From positions 171,951-235,950 of the forward strand of contig CANNEE010000005.1 of NCBI GenBank assembly GCA_947503555.1: a stretch of 64,000 bases of DNA. The letters are read 5' to 3'. The notes beneath the pieces were generated by a model, which saw only the letters and a program-made list of their open reading frames with translations, was not told the DNA's origin and did no database searches. Origin of the DNA: an uncultured Shewanella sp. GTDB lineage: Bacteria; Pseudomonadota; Gammaproteobacteria; Enterobacterales; Shewanellaceae. Shown piece after piece: positions 1,117-41,848 of this stretch (the stretch's first letter is position 1; every line of letters starts with the position of its first letter). Made by a program: the position numbers and the translations under genes.

Positions 1117-1731
1117 AAAATCACCTATGTTATTAAGTTAAAATTAAAAGTTATTAAATTAAAAAAGTTTTCAAAGATTCTGGTTATCAAGGTATCAATA
1201 CTTGTCAGACCATGGTGTGACCCGTGTCTAATTCTGTACTTCTTTAATGTCAAAATTAGTCAAAAGTTGGAACTTAATAACTATAAGGGTGAGTTTTTTG
1301 ACATGAATTACGTAATTTTTTTCAATAACGCCTCGCTTAAATTAGATTGATAATTATTTGTATTTGGTGGTGTGAAGGATGAGATTCAACTTTAAATTGC
1401 TTTGATTTTGTTTATAGCGCTTAATTTTCATTTGCTTACGATACTTTTTTGTCTTGTTTTTTATTTGGGGAATGAGTTCCTCTTTACCGCATGTCGTCTT
1501 AACTGGGCTTATTGAAATAATAAAATTAAATACAGTTTCGGTATTTGTTGTCAGCTTGTTGTCACGTCTGTAATTCTATCTTTAGGTTTTAATTGGTGAG
1601 ATGTGTTGCAGAATTGAAAATAAAGAGAGCCCAATAACACTGAGAGATAATTTATATACAACAATTGCTTATAAAGTGTCATTGCATTTTCTTCGTCTAT
1701 ACTTTTTTTGATGTCCTACTAATAAAAGAGA

Positions 1732-2874
1732 ATGATGATGAAAACCTATCTGACAAGATTAAGCCTTCTCTGTGTTGGTGCTCTTGCAAGTAGTGGTATA
1801 GCAATAGCTGAGGAACTAACGTTAGCGGAGTTGAAGCAACAAATAGAGGTGCTGCAAAAGCAGGTTCAGCGCTTAGAGCAGGCCCAAGAGGCGCAAAAAG
1901 TGGCTCAGCAACAGCCTAAAGTTCAGCAGGTCGCTAAGGTATCCAAGCCTGAGCCGAATAATAAACAGATTGCCGTTTATGGCTCCCTTAGACCTACCTA
2001 TGGTTATTATGATTCCAATGATGACGACTCTTGGGATGTTGGCGATGCCTTATCCCGTATCGGCATAAGGGCTCGTAATGATTTTATGCCTGGGTGGTGG
2101 GCAGAGCTTCACGGAGAGTGGAGTGTCGATATTGCCAATAATGGTGACTTTGGTAAGGCTCGTAACGCCTATGCCGCTGTAGGCTCTCCCTTGGGAAGAG
2201 TTGCGATAGGTAAGATGCGGCCACCTCAATACAGCTTAGTGGCCGAGTATGTCGATATCTTTAACCATGGCAATAGCCCCTTTGGTTATGATGCCAAAGG
2301 GATCTTCTTCATCAATAATATGGTTTCCTATCAATATAAGACAGAGCGGCTGACTTTTATGGCTGCGGGTCAATATGATGGGGAAAATGGTGACGATGCT
2401 AACGATCTCACGAATGCAGGTGTCGGCTTTGACCATGGCAATTTGCATCTGGGGGTGAGCTACTTGATGCAAGACAGTACAGACGCAGGTTTCGTGAATG
2501 GCGATGATAATGTTTGGGCCGCAGTGGCTGCATACAGCTTTGACATGGGCTTGTATCTTGCGGCTGCGTATCAAGATTACACCTATGAAAGAGATGGTTT
2601 AGCCGATAGAGATGGGCATTCGTTGGATGTTACCGCAGCCTATCCATTATCGGATCAATTTAAACTTAAACTAGGGTATTTTGATTTCGAAGATGGTTAT
2701 AGTGCAATAATGAGCCAGAACTTTGATGGCTATAATGCGACGCTAGAATGGCAGCCAGATCCTGATTTAAGATTACATCTAGAGTATTTGCATAAAGATT
2801 TTGAGTACCTAGAGGACTTCTCTTCTCTATTGGTTGGCTTTAGATACGACTTCTCTCAGTCCTGGCATTTTTGA
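1732..2874 (+). CDS. Outer-membrane porin (Gram-negative porin fold) with an N-terminal coiled-coil extension
   Basis: Signal peptide (…GIAIA-EE), then LAELKQQIEVLQKQVQRLEQAQ. Followed by porin-like IAVYGSLR…SRIGIR and alternating beta-strand patterns; C-terminal aromatic residues (GFRYDF…WHF). Confidence 0.82.
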   Translation: MMMKTYLTRLSLLCVGALASSGIAIAEELTLAELKQQIEVLQKQVQRLEQAQEAQKVAQQQPKVQQVAKVSKPEPNNKQIAVYGSLRPTYGYYDSNDDDSWDVGDALSRIGIRARNDFMPGWWAELHGEWSVDIANNGDFGKARNAYAAVGSPLGRVAIGKMRPPQYSLVAEYVDIFNHGNSPFGYDAKGIFFINNMVSYQYKTERLTFMAAGQYDGENGDDANDLTNAGVGFDHGNLHLGVSYLMQDSTDAGFVNGDDNVWAAVAAYSFDMGLYLAAAYQDYTYERDGLADRDGHSLDVTAAYPLSDQFKLKLGYFDFEDGYSAIMSQNFDGYNATLEWQPDPDLRLHLEYLHKDFEYLEDFSSLLVGFRYDFSQSWHF

Positions 2875-33296: not shown

Positions 33297-34175
33297 TTAA
33301 AAAAGTTTACTTCCCCAGCCCAATTTGTTTCTCAGTACGTGAAAATAGTTGTGACCCTTAGGATGGATCAAGCGTAGCTTCTCAATACTGCGCTTAATTA
33401 TGATCTCGTCTCCAGGTAATACGGCTAATGTGACGTGACCGTCACAGCTCACCTCTAGATTTTCACCATTGTCTGGGGAGACGACTAATTTTATTGTGCT
33501 GTTAGCATCGACTACAATCGGACGACAGCTTAAGGTGTGAGGGAACATAGGTACTAGAATAAGTGCCTGAAGGTTTGGTGTAAGTATGGCCCCGCCAGCA
33601 GAAAGTGAGTAGGCAGTTGAGCCAGTGGGAGTGGAGACAATCATACCGTCTGCACGCTGGCTATACATGAACTTGTCGTCAATATAGACTTCAAATTCAA
33701 TCATATGAGCGATTTTTCCTGGATGTAATACCGCTTCGTTGACCGCTGAATTGCTGGCCTTTAACGCGCCGTGGCGATGCACTTCAGCTTCGAGTAGAAA
33801 GCGCTCCTCGACATCGAATTGTCCATCAAGCACTTGAGCAAGCTGCTCTTCAAAGCCATTTGGAGGAAGATCTGTTAAAAAGCCAAGGTTTCCGCGGTTG
33901 ACACCAATCACACTGATATCATAGCGCGCTAACACTCGAGCTGCGCCTAGCATATTGCCATCGCCGCCGACTACTATAGCCAGATCACATCGCTGACCTA
34001 TCTCCAGTAAATCGACTTTATCGATTTTGATATCTAAATCGGCAGCGACCCGCTCTTCAACTAAGATTTGATACCCTTGCATGCTCAGCCAATGGTGCAG
34101 ACGCTTAAGGGTTAAATTGGTCCCTTTATGGTGTGGTTTGCCAATTAGGCCGATTGTACGGAACTTTGTTGTCAT
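33297..34175 (-). CDS. nadK: NAD kinase
   Basis: [18 protein letters not shown] and ADG…[15 protein letters not shown] motifs. Likely start is ATG 34175 (MTTKFRTIG). Confidence 0.97.
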
Positions 34176-39081: not shown

Positions 39082-40020
39082 ATGGCAAAGAAATGCCCCG
39101 AATGCCCACCACCTGGCGCCCCTGCATGGTTAGCAACCTTTGCTGACCTCATGTCGCTGTTGATGTGCTTTTTCGTACTGCTGCTGGCTTTCTCTGAAAT
39201 GGATGTGATGAAGTTTAAGCAGATAGCGGGGTCGATGAAGTATGCCTTTGGTGTGCAAAATAAAGTCAATGTAAAAGATATCCCTAAAGGGACTTCGGTG
39301 ATTGCACTGGAGTTCAGACCTGGGCGCCCAGAACCCACCCCCATTGAAATCATTAACCAGCAAACTAATGAGATCACTCAGCCCATGCTCGAGTTTCAAG
39401 AAGGGGATGATGATGCCGCTGGTGGTGTTCAGCAACAGCGTGGTGAGCAGCGTGGTGGTCAAGCCTCTGCGACAGCGCAAAAAGAGGCTGAAGCGAAGAA
39501 AACACAGGCCTCTTCTGCCGCTCAAGATAAGATCAATGAGCAGCTTAAGAAAATGGCCCAAGAGCTCAATAAAGAGATAGTTGATGGTGCCATTGAGTTA
39601 GAGTCATTAGGACAGCAAATTATTATTAGAATTCGAGAAAAGGGGGCCTTTGCCTCAGGCTCTGGTTTCTTACAACCTAGGTTTAAACCTGTGGTCCGCG
39701 CCGTTGGTGAGCTGCTTAAGGATGTGCCTGGAATCGTGACTGTTTCTGGTCACACAGATGATATGCAAATCAGTAATGAGCTTTATAGCTCTAACTGGGA
39801 TCTCTCTAGCAAGCGCGCTGTTGCCGTCGCCCATGAGCTGGTGAAGGTGAAAGGTTTTGATCAGCAGCGGATGAAAGTGGTGGGCATGGCGTCATCGGCG
39901 CCCTTAGTTCCTAATGATTCTGCGGTTAATCGTACGCGTAATCGTCGTGTTGAAATTGCAATCGAGCAAGGTAAGCCTGCTGAGTCTGATGAGATTTTAG
40001 TGGGCGATGATGAGCCTTAA
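39082..40020 (+). CDS. pomB: Na+-driven flagellar stator subunit B
   Basis: WLATFADLMSLLMCFFVLL transmembrane segment with the conserved Asp; OmpA-like domain GHTD…NWDLSSKRA…RNRRVEI. Confidence 0.96.
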   Translation: MAKKCPECPPPGAPAWLATFADLMSLLMCFFVLLLAFSEMDVMKFKQIAGSMKYAFGVQNKVNVKDIPKGTSVIALEFRPGRPEPTPIEIINQQTNEITQPMLEFQEGDDDAAGGVQQQRGEQRGGQASATAQKEAEAKKTQASSAAQDKINEQLKKMAQELNKEIVDGAIELESLGQQIIIRIREKGAFASGSGFLQPRFKPVVRAVGELLKDVPGIVTVSGHTDDMQISNELYSSNWDLSSKRAVAVAHELVKVKGFDQQRMKVVGMASSAPLVPNDSAVNRTRNRRVEIAIEQGKPAESDEILVGDDEP

Positions 40021-40043
40021 GTCTTACAGGTTAATATTGAAAT

Positions 40044-40070
40044 AAAAAAGAAGCTTCGGCTTCTTTTTTT
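40044..40070. terminator. Terminator after pomAB
   Basis: AAAAAAGAAGC-TTCG-GCTTCTTTTTTT. Confidence 0.9.
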
Positions 40071-40085
40071 GATCTAAAACTCAGT

Positions 40086-40230
40086 AAAAAAAAGACCACC
40101 CTAAGGGTGGTCAACACAATTTATTTTCCAAACTGTTCAAATCGAGTGACAAGGTGGCCATTGCGCTAGCTGTTGCCGCCTTGCCCGCTCGCAAGGGATA
40201 TGATGAAGAACGATGATGAATTCGTTACCT
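40086..40230 (-). ncRNA. Putative sigmaE-dependent small RNA, copy 1 (~145 nt)
   Basis: Promoter GAACCT(40261-56)-N16-TCTGA(40239-35). 5' end GAGGUAACGAAUUCAUCAUCGUUCUUCAUCAUAUCCC, then an internal hairpin. Terminator GACCACCC-UUA-GGGUGGUC-U8 (40112-40086). The 5' end is inferred. Confidence 0.72.
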
Positions 40231-40234
40231 CTAT

Positions 40235-40261
40235 TCAGAGTGGCATAATTGAAAAAGGTTC
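40235..40261 (-). promoter_or_regulatory. SigmaE (RpoE)-type promoter, copy 1
   Basis: GAACCT-N16-TCTGA with an AT-rich upstream tract; the spacing equals the canonical GAACTT-N16-TCTGA. Confidence 0.75.
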
Positions 40262-40346
40262 AAAGTAGATCGCAATTAATTCAGTTTATTTTTTGTGGAG
40301 CTCATCAAACCCTAATTTCTACGGTCTTCAGCGGCAGGATTTAACC

Positions 40347-40491
40347 AAAAAAAAGACCACCGCTAGGGTGGTCAACACAATTTATTTTCAAAACTGTTCA
40401 AATCGAGTGATGAGTTTGACATTGCGCTAACTGTTGCCATCTTGCTCACTCGCAAGGGATATGATGAAGAACGATGATGAATTCGTTACCT
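40347..40491 (-). ncRNA. Putative sigmaE-dependent small RNA, copy 2
   Basis: GAACCT(40522-17)-N16-TCTGA(40500-496); same 5' seed as copy 1; terminator hairpin 40355-40373 plus U8. Confidence 0.72.
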
Positions 40492-40608
40492 CTATTCAGA
40501 GTGGCATAATTGAAAAAGGTTCAAAGTAGATCGCAATTAATTTAATTTATTTTCTTGTGGAGCTAATCAAGCCCTAATTTCTGCGGTTTTCAGCGGCAGG
40601 ATTTAACC

Positions 40609-40752
40609 AAAAAAAAGACCACCGCTAGGGTGGTCAAGACAATTTATTTCAAAACTGTTCAAATCGAGTAGCAAGGTGGACACTGCGCTAGCTGTTGCCT
40701 TCTTGCATGCTCGCAAGGGATATGATGATGAACGATGATGAATTCGTTACCT
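40609..40752 (-). ncRNA. Putative sigmaE-dependent small RNA, copy 3
   Basis: GAACCT(40783-78)-N16-TCTGA(40761-57); seed variant GUUCAUCAUCAUAUCCC; terminator hairpin 40617-40635 plus U8. Confidence 0.72.
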
Positions 40753-40883
40753 CTATTCAGAGTGGCATAATTGAAAAAGGTTCAAATTAGATCGCAATTA
40801 ATTCAATTTATTTTTGCCTTGGTGTCTCAAGCGTTAATTGTCTAGGTTTTTAGAGGAAGATCAGTTTGTGGGGTAATTAGAAT

Positions 40884-41026
40884 AAAAAAAGACCACCGCT
40901 TGGGTGGTCAAAACAATTTATTTCAAAACTGTTCAAACCGAGTGGCAAGGTGGGCACTGCGCTAGCTGTTGCCCTCTTGCTTGCTCGCAAGGGATATGAT
41001 GATGAACGATGAAGAATTCGTTACCC
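40884..41026 (-). ncRNA. Putative sigmaE-dependent small RNA, copy 4
   Basis: GAACCT(41057-52)-N16-TCTGA(41035-31); terminator hairpin 40891-40909 plus U7. Confidence 0.72.
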
Positions 41027-41146
41027 TTATTCAGAGTGGTGTAATCGAAAAAGGTTCAAATAAAATTGAAATAATTTTAAAAGCTGGCTCGATAGTCCGA
41101 AACTAGCAAGCTTTACATTGTGGTGGTTTGGCTGACATTAGGGCAT

Positions 41147-41256
41147 AAAAGAAGGCAACCTTGTGGGTTGCCTTGGGATCTATTCCTAGATCAAGGGGAC
41201 AGCGCTAAATGTCCCTGGGAGAATGATGAACACGAAAAAAACTCTTCCACTGTTCA
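41147..41256 (-). ncRNA. Putative sigmaE-dependent small RNA 5 (diverged member, ~110 nt)
   Basis: Promoter GAACTT(41288-83)-N16-TCAAA(41266-62). Contains GUUCAUCAUUCUCCC and the hairpins GGGACA-UUUAGCGC-UGUCCC and GAUCUA-GGAA-UAGAUC. Terminator AAGGCAACC-CACAA-GGUUGCCUU-CUUUU. Confidence 0.68.
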
Positions 41257-41261
41257 TAGTA

Positions 41262-41288
41262 TTTGAGCTTAAGCTTGCAATAAAGTTC
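41262..41288 (-). promoter_or_regulatory. Consensus sigmaE promoter
   Basis: GAACTT-TATTGCAAGCTTAAGC(16)-TCAAA, an exact match to the enterobacterial sigmaE core. Confidence 0.82.
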
Positions 41289-41365
41289 AAAAAATAGGCA
41301 AAAATAATTTGGTTTTTATTAACCTCTCATTAAGGTGTGAACTTTATCCTTTTTAAATTAATTGG

Positions 41366-41848
41366 TTAAAGCAAGGCTTCAATCTCATCTGCTAGCGAAC
41401 TAGGTTTCGTTTTTGGTGCAAAGCGGAATATTTTGTTGCCATCAGCACTGACTAAGAACTTGGTGAAGTTCCACTTTATTGACTTGGAACCCAGTAAGCC
41501 AGGTGCTGATTGTTTTAATAGCTCAAATAGTTCACTGGCATTATCACCATTGACTTCAATTTTGGAAAAAAGCGGGAAACTGACGCCAAAATTTAGCTCG
41601 CAAAAGGATTGAATCGCTTCTTCGTCACCTTTTTCCTGGGCACCAAATTGGTTACATGGAAAACCTAATACCATTAAACCTTGGTCTTTATAGCTTTGGT
41701 AAAGGGCTTCTAATTCCTTGTATTGGGGAGTAAAGCCACAGGCGCTAGCGGTATTTACGATCAATAGCACCTTGCCTTGATACTGTGACATATCATGTTC
41801 ATTTCCTTGAATATCTTTTACTTTGATATCGTAAATACTCTGCTTCAT
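41366..41848 (-). CDS. Glutathione peroxidase (Gpx/BtuE family)
   Basis: VNTASACGFTPQY, GFPCNQFGAQE and IKWNFTKFLV motifs. Confidence 0.96.
   Translation of the reverse strand: MKQSIYDIKVKDIQGNEHDMSQYQGKVLLIVNTASACGFTPQYKELEALYQSYKDQGLMVLGFPCNQFGAQEKGDEEAIQSFCELNFGVSFPLFSKIEVNGDNASELFELLKQSAPGLLGSKSIKWNFTKFLVSADGNKIFRFAPKTKPSSLADEIEALL

What the first reader, a model, noticed from the sequence alone, without database searches (positions are those of the whole stretch)
41147..41288. A fifth, diverged sRNA unit that keeps only the functional modules
Seen in sequence: this unit does not align with the four repeats overall. It still has a perfect sigmaE core (GAACTT-N16-TCAAA), the seed GUUCAUCAU followed by a CCC tract (UUCUCCC vs CAUAUCCC), a hairpin with a UAGCGC loop (GGGACA-UUUAGCGC-UGUCCC) and a different terminator. 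Inference: keeping promoter, seed and loop while everything else changed indicates selection on these RNA motifs. That is much harder to explain by recent duplication alone, and it is the best internal evidence that the array is functional. This unit may be the ancestral or most strongly expressed member.
Basis: partly seen in the sequence, partly recalled or inferred. Interest (0 to 1): 0.72.

Follow-up and report, generated by a model that had tools for sequence, protein, structure and literature searches.

The report
Conserved Shewanella envelope-stress small RNA gene
The "fifth unit" is the one member of a small-RNA gene cluster found in every Shewanella genome searched; it has an envelope-stress (sigma-E type) promoter and an unchanging stretch that fits the start of outer-membrane protein messages such as ompA, so it is probably this genus's undescribed counterpart of E. 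coli MicA.

Summary

- A covariance model of the unit matches 119 of 119 Shewanella genomes. An exact scan for its core in 185,579 species returned only Shewanella.
- Across 70 sequences the -35 GAAC, the -10 TC..A, the seed core and the loop UAGCG never change.
- Three hairpins keep pairing through compensatory changes: 97.5% of cells paired, against 37-49% when partners are slid.
- The gene lies directly downstream of glutathione peroxidase (gpx) in 64 of 69 loci.
- 57 of 69 loci carry further, much more diverged, co-oriented copies downstream. The window's four repeats belong to this class.

The genome encodes RpoE and Hfq. There is no Rfam match and I found no paper describing the RNA.

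Predicted targets are envelope proteins. All 30 ompA orthologues examined start AUGAUGAA, and 17 carry an 11-12 nt perfect complement. In this genome the four best translation-start matches all have signal peptides.

Most likely this is a new sigma-E-dependent, MicA-like repressor of outer-membrane protein synthesis. This scan has not noted the RNA on other DNA.

The parts
41366..41848 (-). Glutathione peroxidase gene (gpx, cytoplasmic type, 160 aa) directly upstream on the same strand. No terminator lies between its stop codon and the sRNA.
   Evidence: Pfam GSHPx, E 8.7e-44. Same arrangement in 64 of 69 Shewanella loci. The terminator scan finds none between 41366 and 41288.
41289..41300 (-). 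T-rich tract just upstream of the -35 element (UP-element-like)
   Evidence: TTATTTTTT is the consensus just before GAAC in most of the 70 aligned sequences.
41262..41288 (-). Sigma-E (RpoE)-type promoter: -35 GAACTT (41288-41283), 16-nt spacer, -10 TCAAA (41266-41262)
   Evidence: GAAC and TC..A are invariant in 70 sequences; spacer length is kept but its sequence is not. Motif count is 6 against 0.35 expected. This genome's own rpoE has GAACTT-N16-TCTAC upstream. That matches the RpoE motif reported for 17 Shewanella strains and differs from the RpoE2 motif TGATCC..CGTAAT (PMC4336711).
41147..41255 (-). Predicted primary transcript, about 109 nt. The start at G 41255 is inferred from the 6-nt distance between -10 and +1 seen at E. 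coli micA.
   Evidence: Covariance model R1: 106.4 bits, E 5e-23. Fold z = -3.74. micA promoter geometry read. The start site is inferred, not mapped.
41227..41256 (-). 5' stem-loop (UGAACA...UGUUCA) that holds the first bases of the seed
   Evidence: Minimum-energy fold. The GAACA:UGUUC helix is paired in 97.9% of cells across 70 sequences, with one pair changed on both sides in 2 sequences.
41217..41231 (-). Seed GUUCAUCAUUCUCCC. 41226-41216 is single-stranded in the fold.
   Evidence: Core UUC.UCA.UCUCC is invariant in 70 sequences. It is complementary to translation-start regions of ompA, a TonB-dependent receptor, a porin and a periplasmic protein.
41196..41215 (-). Hairpin 1: GGGACA / UGUCCC stem with loop UUUAGCGC (loop at 41209-41202)
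   Evidence: One stem pair is A-U in 40 and G-C in 27 sequences. Loop bases U, A, C, G of UAGCG are invariant and the middle G nearly so. The same loop motif CUAGCGC occurs in the diverged copies.
41177..41192 (-). Hairpin 2: GAUCUA-GGAA-UAGAUC
   Evidence: Two pairs show U-A/C-G/G-C/A-U exchanges across species.
41147..41174 (-). Rho-independent terminator (stem 41174-41152) plus U tail (41151-41147). This is a likely Hfq-binding 3' end.
   Evidence: Terminator scan. Four stem pairs have a change on both sides in at least one sequence.
40087..41057 (-). Four downstream co-oriented copies (second class), each with GAACCT-N16-TCUGA, a doubled UUCAUCAU seed, a CUAGCGC loop and its own terminator. 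Model matches at 40884-41034, 40610-40760, 40348-40499 and 40087-40238.
   Evidence: Repeat family D1. R1 matches at 22.8-26.8 bits. The same class lies downstream of the unit-5 orthologue in 57 of 69 loci.
1721..1742 (+). Translation start of a Porin_4-family porin (AAAGAGAAUGAUGAUGAAAAC): 11-nt complement to the unit-5 seed and 11-nt complement to the repeats' seed
   Evidence: The match is NOT kept in orthologues of other species, so it is a weak target candidate for unit 5.

Best explanation
Window 41147-41288 (minus strand) is a complete gene for a trans-acting small regulatory RNA of about 109 nt. It is the genus-wide, vertically inherited core member of a Shewanella sRNA family.

Proposed mechanism:
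1. Envelope stress releases the sigma factor RpoE, which fires the GAACTT-N16-TCAAA promoter.
2. The RNA has a 5' stem-loop, a single-stranded invariant seed (UGUUCAUCAUUCUCCC), two hairpins and a U-tailed terminator that can bind Hfq.
3. The seed pairs across the Shine-Dalgarno and start-codon region of mRNAs for envelope proteins. The leading candidate is ompA (start AAUGAUGAACA). Others are a TonB-dependent receptor (CCAGGGAGA...) and porin-type proteins.
4. Pairing blocks ribosome binding, so fewer outer-membrane proteins are made while the envelope is damaged. MicA and RybB do this in E. coli, and VrrA and MicV in Vibrio.
5. The four repeats downstream are diverged siblings. Their doubled seed (UUCAUCAUCAU) fits the AUGAUGAUGAA starts of porin genes.

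Shown here: the motifs, their conservation, covariation in the structure, synteny, absence of a conserved reading frame, presence of rpoE and hfq, and complementarity to envelope-gene starts.

Inferred: that the RNA is made, that RpoE drives it, that Hfq binds it, and that it represses these targets.
For: Real, selected RNA gene:
- Model R1 matches 119 of 119 genus genomes.
- 58 exact hits to the seed-hairpin module among 185,579 species are all Shewanella.
- Three hairpins: 97.5% of cells paired against 37-49% for slid partners; 11 pairs (one of them in the 5' helix) with a change on both sides; 0 of 500 shuffles reach the observed values.
- Downstream of gpx in 64 of 69 loci.
- The reading frame from the 5' start codon shifts between species, so it is not a protein gene.

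Sigma-E promoter:
- Invariant GAAC and TC..A at fixed spacing, with a free spacer sequence.
- Same motif class as this genome's rpoE promoter and as the RpoE motif published for Shewanella; unlike the RpoE2 motif (PMC4336711).
- RpoE equivalog at 334 bits and Hfq at 102 bits are both present.
- The motif also sits upstream of ORFs that look, by my reading of their N-termini, like surA and dsbA.

Targets:
- ompA starts AUGAUGAA in 30 of 30 orthologues, with an 11-12 nt perfect complement in 17 of 30. This genome's ompA has 11 nt, AGAAUGAUGAA.
- Of 2,469 crude gene starts, the 4 with a complement of at least 11 nt all carry signal peptides: OmpA, a TonB receptor, a Porin_4 porin and a periplasmic protein. 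Background is 29%.
- 13 genes have at least 10 nt, against 3.1 for shuffled seeds; 0 of 200 shuffles reach 13.
- The TonB receptor leader keeps CCAGGGAGA in 13 of the 14 close orthologues that could be read.

The functional class (sigma-E sRNAs repressing OMPs, ompA central) is established in E. coli and Vibrio (PMC6694218).
Against:
- The first seed bases (GUUCA) are paired in a conserved 5' stem, which may limit ompA pairing.
- AUGAUGAA in ompA is fully fixed by the residues Met-Met-Asn/Lys, so its conservation could be protein-level.
- The seed resembles an anti-Shine-Dalgarno plus anti-AUG sequence, so matches at gene starts are inflated. The shuffled-seed control addresses this only partly.
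- The porin match in the window is not conserved.
- The gene set and the signal-peptide test are crude heuristics of my own.
- The function of the equally conserved UAGCGC loop is unexplained.
Confidence: 0.65

Rival explanations
1. It is mainly the 3' end of the gpx mRNA. The conserved hairpins and terminator would end and stabilise the gpx transcript. Any small RNA would come from processing of that 3' UTR, tying it to oxidative stress rather than to RpoE.
For: The unit directly follows gpx on the same strand in 64 of 69 loci. No terminator is predicted between the gpx stop and the unit, so gpx transcripts probably do run into it.
Against: A terminator role does not explain an invariant 15-nt single-stranded tract, or an invariant GAAC-N16-TC..A motif at a fixed distance upstream. 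It also does not explain that sibling copies with the same promoter, seed and loop stand alone far from any ORF, in downstream arrays and at a separate locus 2.5-3.3 kb away. The two origins are not exclusive: MicL and DapZ are 3'-embedded sRNAs with their own promoters (my knowledge).
Confidence: 0.12
2. It is a true but very diverged orthologue of enterobacterial MicA, not an independent family.
For: - Same promoter class and the same 6-nt distance from -10 to +1.
- Similar 5'-proximal seed: MicA UGUUAUCAUCAUCCCUG against UGUUCAUCAUUCUCCCUG.
- R1 with filters off puts its best hit in the 1.1-kb E. coli locus exactly on micA (21.8 bits, local E 6.5e-5).
- Rfam's MicA model weakly touches a sibling unit (19.2 bits, E 5.6).
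- Pairwise alignment z = 2.0-2.6.
Against: - Rfam MicA does not match unit 5 even at E <= 10.
- Across the whole E. coli genome, under the stricter filters, R1 listed only an unrelated site (23.8 bits, E 0.09) that scores above the 21.8 bits of micA. The micA match is therefore not significant genome-wide.
- Different neighbours: gpx and pomB here, luxS and gshA in E. coli.
- Different length and number of hairpins.
- Convergence on a U/C-rich anti-start-site seed is an equally good reading.
Confidence: 0.15
3. It is a conserved structured RNA that works chiefly through its invariant UAGCGC loop rather than by repressing OMP mRNAs through the seed. The loop could act as a decoy for a protein or another RNA, or through loop-loop contacts between the many sibling copies.
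For: The loop motif is as conserved as the seed. It is shared by all three copy classes despite different stems. No target for it was identified here.
Against: The loop core is too short to analyse: GCGCTAG occurs 657 times in the genome against 553 expected. Relatives in the sister genus keep promoter and seed but not the loop motif, so the seed is the older and more general module.
Confidence: 0.06
4. It encodes a small hydrophobic protein. In this genome that would be MNSGRVFFVFIILPGTFSAVPLI, read from the ATG at the transcript start.
For: A 23-codon frame starts at the 5' end in this genome.
Against: In other species the start is TTG, GTG or missing. Insertions and deletions that are not multiples of three shift the frame, giving FHVHHSPWDF* in some species and FMFIILPGTSSAVPLI in others. 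There is no Shine-Dalgarno sequence. The conservation pattern is that of RNA, with compensatory stem changes.
Confidence: 0.02

Closest known systems
MicA (E. coli/Salmonella; Rfam RF00078)
   Same: Sigma-E-type promoter with the same -10 to +1 geometry, a 5'-proximal U/C-rich seed (UGUUAUCAUCAUCCCUG against UGUUCAUCAUUCUCCCUG), a U-tailed terminator, and ompA as the (predicted) prime target (PMC6694218).
   Different: No Rfam match. About 109 nt with a 5' stem-loop, two internal hairpins and a terminator, against the 73-nt annotated micA. Lies after gpx rather than between luxS and gshA. Predicted pairing covers the ompA start codon, whereas MicA pairs just upstream of it (my knowledge). Comes with up to several sibling copies.
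VrrA and MicV (Vibrio cholerae) and RybB (enterobacteria)
   Same: Sigma-E-dependent sRNAs that act redundantly on shared envelope-protein targets, including ompA. Two or more sRNAs in one regulon share a seed (PMC6694218).
   Different: No sequence or model similarity: no Rfam hit at E <= 10. Their shared seed as I remember it (GCCACUGCUUUU type) is different. They are single genes at scattered loci, not a tandem cluster.
Multicopy 'sibling' sRNAs (Qrr1-5, PrrF1/PrrF2, OmrA/OmrB)
   Same: Several homologous sRNA genes, partly in tandem, share a seed and a promoter type. Copy number varies between species.
   Different: Those respond to sigma-54/LuxO, Fur or OmpR (my knowledge). Here the promoter is of sigma-E type, and one member is far better conserved than its siblings.
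MicL / DapZ-type sRNAs (3'-end-embedded, own promoter)
   Same: The sRNA shares its terminator with the upstream protein gene and still has its own promoter. MicL is also sigma-E dependent (PMC6694218).
   Different: Here the promoter lies in the intergenic spacer after the stop codon, not inside the coding region. Read-through from gpx is inferred only.

Membership tests
Sigma-E-dependent envelope-stress sRNAs (functional class: MicA, RybB, MicL, VrrA, MicV) | Promoter matching the RpoE consensus (GGAACTT-N16-TCAAA/TCTGA) at the right distance from the RNA 5' end | tested here: met
   GAACTT-N16-TCAAA at 41288-41262. GAAC and TC..A are invariant in 70 sequences. Matches the rpoE promoter of this genome and the published Shewanella RpoE motif, not the RpoE2 motif. 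This is sequence-level evidence only.
Sigma-E-dependent envelope-stress sRNAs (functional class: MicA, RybB, MicL, VrrA, MicV) | Transcript present and dependent on rpoE | not testable with these tools
No paper was found with transcript data for this locus.
Sigma-E-dependent envelope-stress sRNAs (functional class: MicA, RybB, MicL, VrrA, MicV) | Conserved accessible seed complementary to translation-start regions of outer-membrane or envelope protein mRNAs | tested here: met
   In silico only. ompA carries an 11-12 nt complement in 17 of 30 species and AUGAUGAA in 30 of 30. The 4 best gene-start matches in this genome are all exported proteins. The TonB receptor leader is conserved.
Sigma-E-dependent envelope-stress sRNAs (functional class: MicA, RybB, MicL, VrrA, MicV) | Hfq-type architecture (intrinsic terminator with U tail) and Hfq binding | tested here: inconclusive
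   Terminator plus U tail is present, and its stem shows covariation. The hfq gene is present. Binding cannot be tested here.
MicA (Rfam RF00078) | Reaches the family's covariance-model gathering score (41 bits) | tested here: not met
   No match at gathering score in the window. At E <= 10, unit 5 is not hit at all; one sibling unit gets 19.2 bits, E 5.6.
MicA (Rfam RF00078) | Reciprocal similarity (the Shewanella model recognises micA significantly) | tested here: inconclusive
   21.8 bits on micA within its 1.1-kb locus. Genome-wide, under the stricter filters, R1 listed only an unrelated site (23.8 bits, E 0.09) that scores above micA's 21.8 bits. Pairwise z = 2.0-2.6.
MicA (Rfam RF00078) | Conserved position between luxS and gshA | tested here: not met
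   Here the unit lies between gpx and (after the sibling array) pomB/pomA. The E. coli context was read.
VrrA / MicV / RybB (Rfam families) | Match to the family model | tested here: not met
   None of these families appears among the 23 matches at E <= 10 over 39900-41500.
Sibling (multicopy) sRNA families | Two or more homologous sRNA genes in one genome sharing a seed and a promoter type | tested here: met
   Unit 5 plus four copies in the window. 127 further co-oriented copies in 57 of 69 loci. A third, distal copy class exists in other genomes.

The most novel reading that the evidence does not exclude
Shewanella carries a genus-wide, previously undescribed battery of sigma-E small RNAs. 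It consists of one nearly invariant core gene after gpx, a tandem array of fast-evolving siblings whose number varies between species, and often a distal copy. Together these would read a start-site signature, AUGAUG(AUG)AA, that marks genes for outer-membrane and other exported proteins. The core member would be tuned to ompA and the siblings to porins. The second invariant module, the UAGCGC loop, would be a further, still unknown interaction site.
Probability: 0.4. Interest if true: 0.72.

Novelty: new member of a known kind. Interest (0 to 1): 0.6.

Why it matters
Sigma-E-controlled small RNAs that shut down outer-membrane protein synthesis are a textbook stress circuit, but they are known in detail only for enterobacteria and Vibrio. 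The published prediction of the RpoE regulon in Shewanella lists protein genes only (PMC4336711).

This locus would supply the missing non-coding arm for a genus studied for metal respiration, cold and deep-sea life and food spoilage. In these organisms the outer-membrane protein make-up, including porins, TonB receptors and surface cytochromes, matters directly.

The locus is also a natural experiment in sRNA evolution. One member is frozen across a whole genus while its neighbours duplicate and drift, keeping only promoter, seed and one loop.

All of this is directly testable in the laboratory strain S. oneidensis MR-1.

Tried and rejected
- Rfam at gathering score and at E <= 10 gave nothing meaningful.
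- An exact or 3-mismatch search for the full 23-nt anti-seed in the genome found only the gene's own antisense strand.
- A first whole-genome duplex scan timed out.
- A second scan with a 43-nt 'seed' gave inflated, uninformative energies and was dropped.
- Full-text searches for the seed sequence, and for Shewanella sigma-E or Hfq sRNAs, found no description of this RNA. A mis-set query was wasted.
- The Porin_4 gene in the window as a conserved target of unit 5 is rejected as conserved: its orthologues do not keep the complement.
- The small-protein reading is rejected.
- MicA orthology is neither shown nor excluded.
- A sixth sigma-E-like motif at 33669-33695 (+) lies antisense inside a coding region, with no RNA features, and is taken as chance.
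- The loop complement GCGCUAG is too frequent in the genome to analyse.
- Earlier notes of this scan hold nothing from other genomes.

Full report
**1. What is at the coordinates**

Read on the minus strand, the stretch follows a 160-aa glutathione peroxidase gene (41848-41366; Pfam GSHPx, E 8.7e-44). In order it contains:
- a T-rich tract;
- GAACTT (41288-41283), 16 nt, then TCAAA (41266-41262);
- UGAACAG at the expected start;
- a U-run, then GUUCAUCAUUCUCCC (41231-41217);
- the hairpin GGGACA-UUUAGCGC-UGUCCC (41215-41196);
- a second hairpin GAUCUA-GGAA-UAGAUC (41192-41177);
- the terminator AAGGCAACC-CACAA-GGUUGCCUU-CUUUU (41174-41147).

The 110-nt RNA folds at -36.9 kcal/mol, with z = -3.74 against dinucleotide shuffles. 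The promoter pattern GAACYT-N16-TCWRA occurs six times in the 64-kb window against 0.35 expected. Five of the six are the five units of this cluster.

Downstream lie four 261-274-bp repeats, each with its own terminator. After them come convergent motB/motA-type genes.

**2. Relation to the four repeats**

blastn of unit 5 against its own genome finds only itself, so there is no ordinary sequence similarity. MAFFT nevertheless lines up the same modules in the same order. A covariance model built only from orthologues of unit 5 in other species (R1) finds all four repeats full-length, at 22.8-26.8 bits and E 2.5e-4 to 2.3e-3. They are diverged copies of one family, not unrelated units.

**3. 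Comparative evidence**

- **Spread in the genus.** A DNA search of the genus found the unit in 109 of 120 genomes, with the best-conserved part running from the seed to the terminator. Model R1 found it in 119 of 119 genus genomes.
- **Restriction to Shewanella.** An exact scan for the seed-plus-hairpin module across one genome for each of 185,579 species returned 58 records, all named Shewanella.
- **Sister genus.** In one sister genus of the same family, three genomes hold weaker relatives (32-35 bits). These keep a sigma-E-like promoter, the UGAACAG start and the seed UUCAUCAUCAUUCUCCCUU, but not the UAGCGC loop.
- **What is invariant.** I aligned 70 sequences. The invariant columns are the -35 GAAC, the -10 TC..A, the seed UUC.UCA.UCUCC, the loop UA.CG and parts of the stems. 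The promoter spacer keeps its length but not its sequence.
- **Structure.** RNAalifold predicts the three hairpins. On my named structure, 97.5% of cells pair, against 37-49% when partners are slid by 1-3 columns. Eleven pairs have changes on both sides, and 0 of 500 shuffles reach the observed values. For example, one hairpin-1 pair is A-U in 40 sequences and G-C in 27. A 5' helix GAACA:UGUUC is also kept (97.9% paired).
- **No protein.** A reading frame from the 5' ATG exists in this genome but shifts between species, so this is not a protein gene.

**4. Genomic setting**

In 64 of 69 loci the unit sits directly downstream of gpx on the same strand, mostly 40-60 nt away. No terminator is predicted between gpx and the unit. 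gpx transcripts therefore probably end at the sRNA's terminator. The unit may be both a primary transcript and a 3' UTR.

In 57 of 69 loci, R1 finds one or more further copies, 127 in all. All that I checked were co-oriented and downstream. Their typical form is GAACTA/T-N16-TCUGA, a GUAACAG start, a doubled seed (UUCAUCAU...GUUCAUCAUCUCCC) and a GCUAGCGCA loop. The window's four repeats belong to this class.

Many genomes hold a third copy class 2.5-3.3 kb away, in another intergenic region, scoring about 37-50 bits. So one frozen core gene plus variable siblings is the normal Shewanella arrangement.

**5. Promoter type**

- The genome encodes an RpoE equivalog (334 bits, over the cut-off) and Hfq.
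- Its rpoE gene is preceded by GAACTT-N16-TCTAC.
- Dai et al. (PMC4336711) report GAACTT...TCTACA upstream of rpoE in 17 Shewanella strains, with a mapped start site.
- They list RpoE-type promoters of the same form for bam, lpt, surA, degQ and rpoH genes.
- They show that the second ECF factor, RpoE2, uses a different motif (TGATCC...CGTAAT). Their list contains no RNA genes.
- In this genome the loose motif occurs 61 times. Some occurrences lie upstream of ORFs whose N-termini look to me like surA and dsbA.

The assignment to RpoE is thus well founded at sequence level, but it has not been shown.

**6. Likely targets**

The reverse complement of the invariant tract reads GGGAGAAUGAUGAAC(A)UG, which looks like a ribosome-binding site followed by start codons. 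The evidence for envelope targets is as follows.

- **Best matches in this genome.** I built a crude set of 2,469 gene starts and looked for the longest perfect complement within -30 to +20. Four genes reach 11 nt or more. They are a 247-aa periplasmic protein (12 nt), OmpA (AGAAUGAUGAA), a TonB-dependent receptor (GGGAGAAUGAU) and the Porin_4 porin in the window (GAGAAUGAUGA). All four carry signal peptides, against a background of 29%.
- **Shuffled-seed control.** Thirteen genes reach 10 nt or more, against 3.1 for shuffled seeds; 0 of 200 shuffles reach 13.
- **ompA across species.** All 30 orthologues examined start AUGAUGAA, and 17 read (G)AAUGAUGAACA, an 11-12 nt perfect complement to UGUUCAUCAUU(C).
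- **TonB receptor across species.** The leader keeps CCAGGGAGA in 13 of the 14 close orthologues that could be read, within otherwise variable AT-rich sequence.
- **Porin_4 across species.** The match is not kept in orthologues.
- **The siblings' seed UUCAUCAUCAU.** ATGATGATGAA occurs 15 times in the genome. Five occurrences are at gene starts, and all five genes encode porin-type outer-membrane proteins: Porin_4, three paralogues of an unclassified 385-aa OMP family, and a TorF-family porin. Close orthologues of that OMP family keep AAUGAUGAUGAA in at least eight species.
- **Start signature in general.** Genes starting ATGATGAA are 27 exported against 7 not (odds ratio 9.6). The double AUG remains enriched among exported Met-Lys/Asn starts (odds ratio 3.4, p = 0.002).

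**7. Mechanism proposed**

RpoE-driven transcription would produce an sRNA whose seed, with Hfq's help, pairs across the start regions of ompA and other envelope-protein mRNAs. That would block initiation and lower the load on the outer-membrane assembly machinery. This is the role established for MicA and RybB, and for VrrA and MicV (PMC6694218).

Caveats:
- There is no expression evidence.
- Part of the seed is held in the 5' stem.
- Conservation of AUGAUGAA in ompA could be due to the protein sequence.
- The seed's likeness to an anti-ribosome-binding site inflates matches at gene starts.
- The function of the conserved loop is unknown.

**8. Comparison with known families**

- Rfam has no match at gathering score. 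At E <= 10, unit 5 is not hit, and MicA's model touches one sibling at 19.2 bits.
- I fetched the annotated E. coli micA. It has GAACTC-N16-TCTGA, 6 nt to +1, and the seed UGUUAUCAUCAUCCCUG.
- R1 places its best local hit exactly on micA (21.8 bits).
- Genome-wide, under the stricter filters, R1 listed only an unrelated site that scores above micA's 21.8 bits (23.8 bits, E 0.09). Pairwise z is only 2.0-2.6.

So the RNA works like MicA on the evidence available, but membership in the MicA family is not shown. I file it as a new family within the known kind 'sigma-E-dependent OMP-repressing sRNAs', with the added feature of sibling arrays.

**9. Verdict**

I found no description of this RNA in Rfam or in the held literature. 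Interest is moderate to high for RNA biology and Shewanella physiology. It is not a new kind of system.

Noticed in passing
L042:1488-1604 (+); also L043:1420-1529 (-), L040:1416-1539 (-), L044:1510-1632 (+): Many Shewanella genomes hold a third copy class 2.5-3.3 kb from the core gene, in a different intergenic region. In one genome it lies between an M1 aminopeptidase-like ORF and a multi-pass membrane-protein ORF. It has GGAAC-N16-TCTGA, the seed UUUUUCAUCGUUCAUCAUCAUCCUCCC and the loop UUUCUAGCGCA, and scores 37-50 bits with R1. No such copy was seen in this window.
   Followed up: partly
L154:6606-7051 (Shewanella corallii contig): One species has three tandem copies of the core-type module itself, about 200 nt apart. 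All three match the exact seed-hairpin pattern.
   Followed up: no
L132-L135 (sister genus of the same family): Relatives with a sigma-E-like promoter, a UGAACAG start and the seed UUCAUCAUCAUUCUCCCUU, but other hairpins and no UAGCGC loop. The seed and promoter are older than the genus.
   Followed up: partly
whole genome G000 (e.g. C1:348019, C1:560972, C8:180977, C19:69624, C19:76677; window 1732): Genes starting ATGATGAA (Met-Met-Lys/Asn) are strongly enriched for exported proteins: 27 against 7, odds ratio 9.6. All five gene starts reading ATGATGATGAA belong to porin-type outer-membrane proteins.
   Followed up: partly
G000:C1:580582-581736 and five paralogues (C19:76680, C19:69639, C8:180980, C7:139280, C4:263332): A family of ~385-aa proteins with a signal peptide and a C-terminal Phe, probably outer-membrane barrels. 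The member tested has no Pfam or NCBIfam match. There are six copies in this genome and up to seven in relatives.
   Followed up: no
window 41289-41365 (-): The gpx gene has no predicted terminator of its own. Its transcript probably runs into the sRNA and ends at the sRNA terminator.
   Followed up: partly
window 33669-33695 (+): A sixth match to the sigma-E promoter pattern lies antisense inside a 329-aa ORF, with no RNA features after it. It is probably chance.
   Followed up: yes
window 40143-40987 (-): The central hairpin of the four repeats changes its stem between copies while pairing is kept (for example CGAGUGA...UCACUCG in copy C against GCAAG...CUUGC in the others), around a constant CAG(C/U)UAGCGCA loop.
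   Followed up: partly
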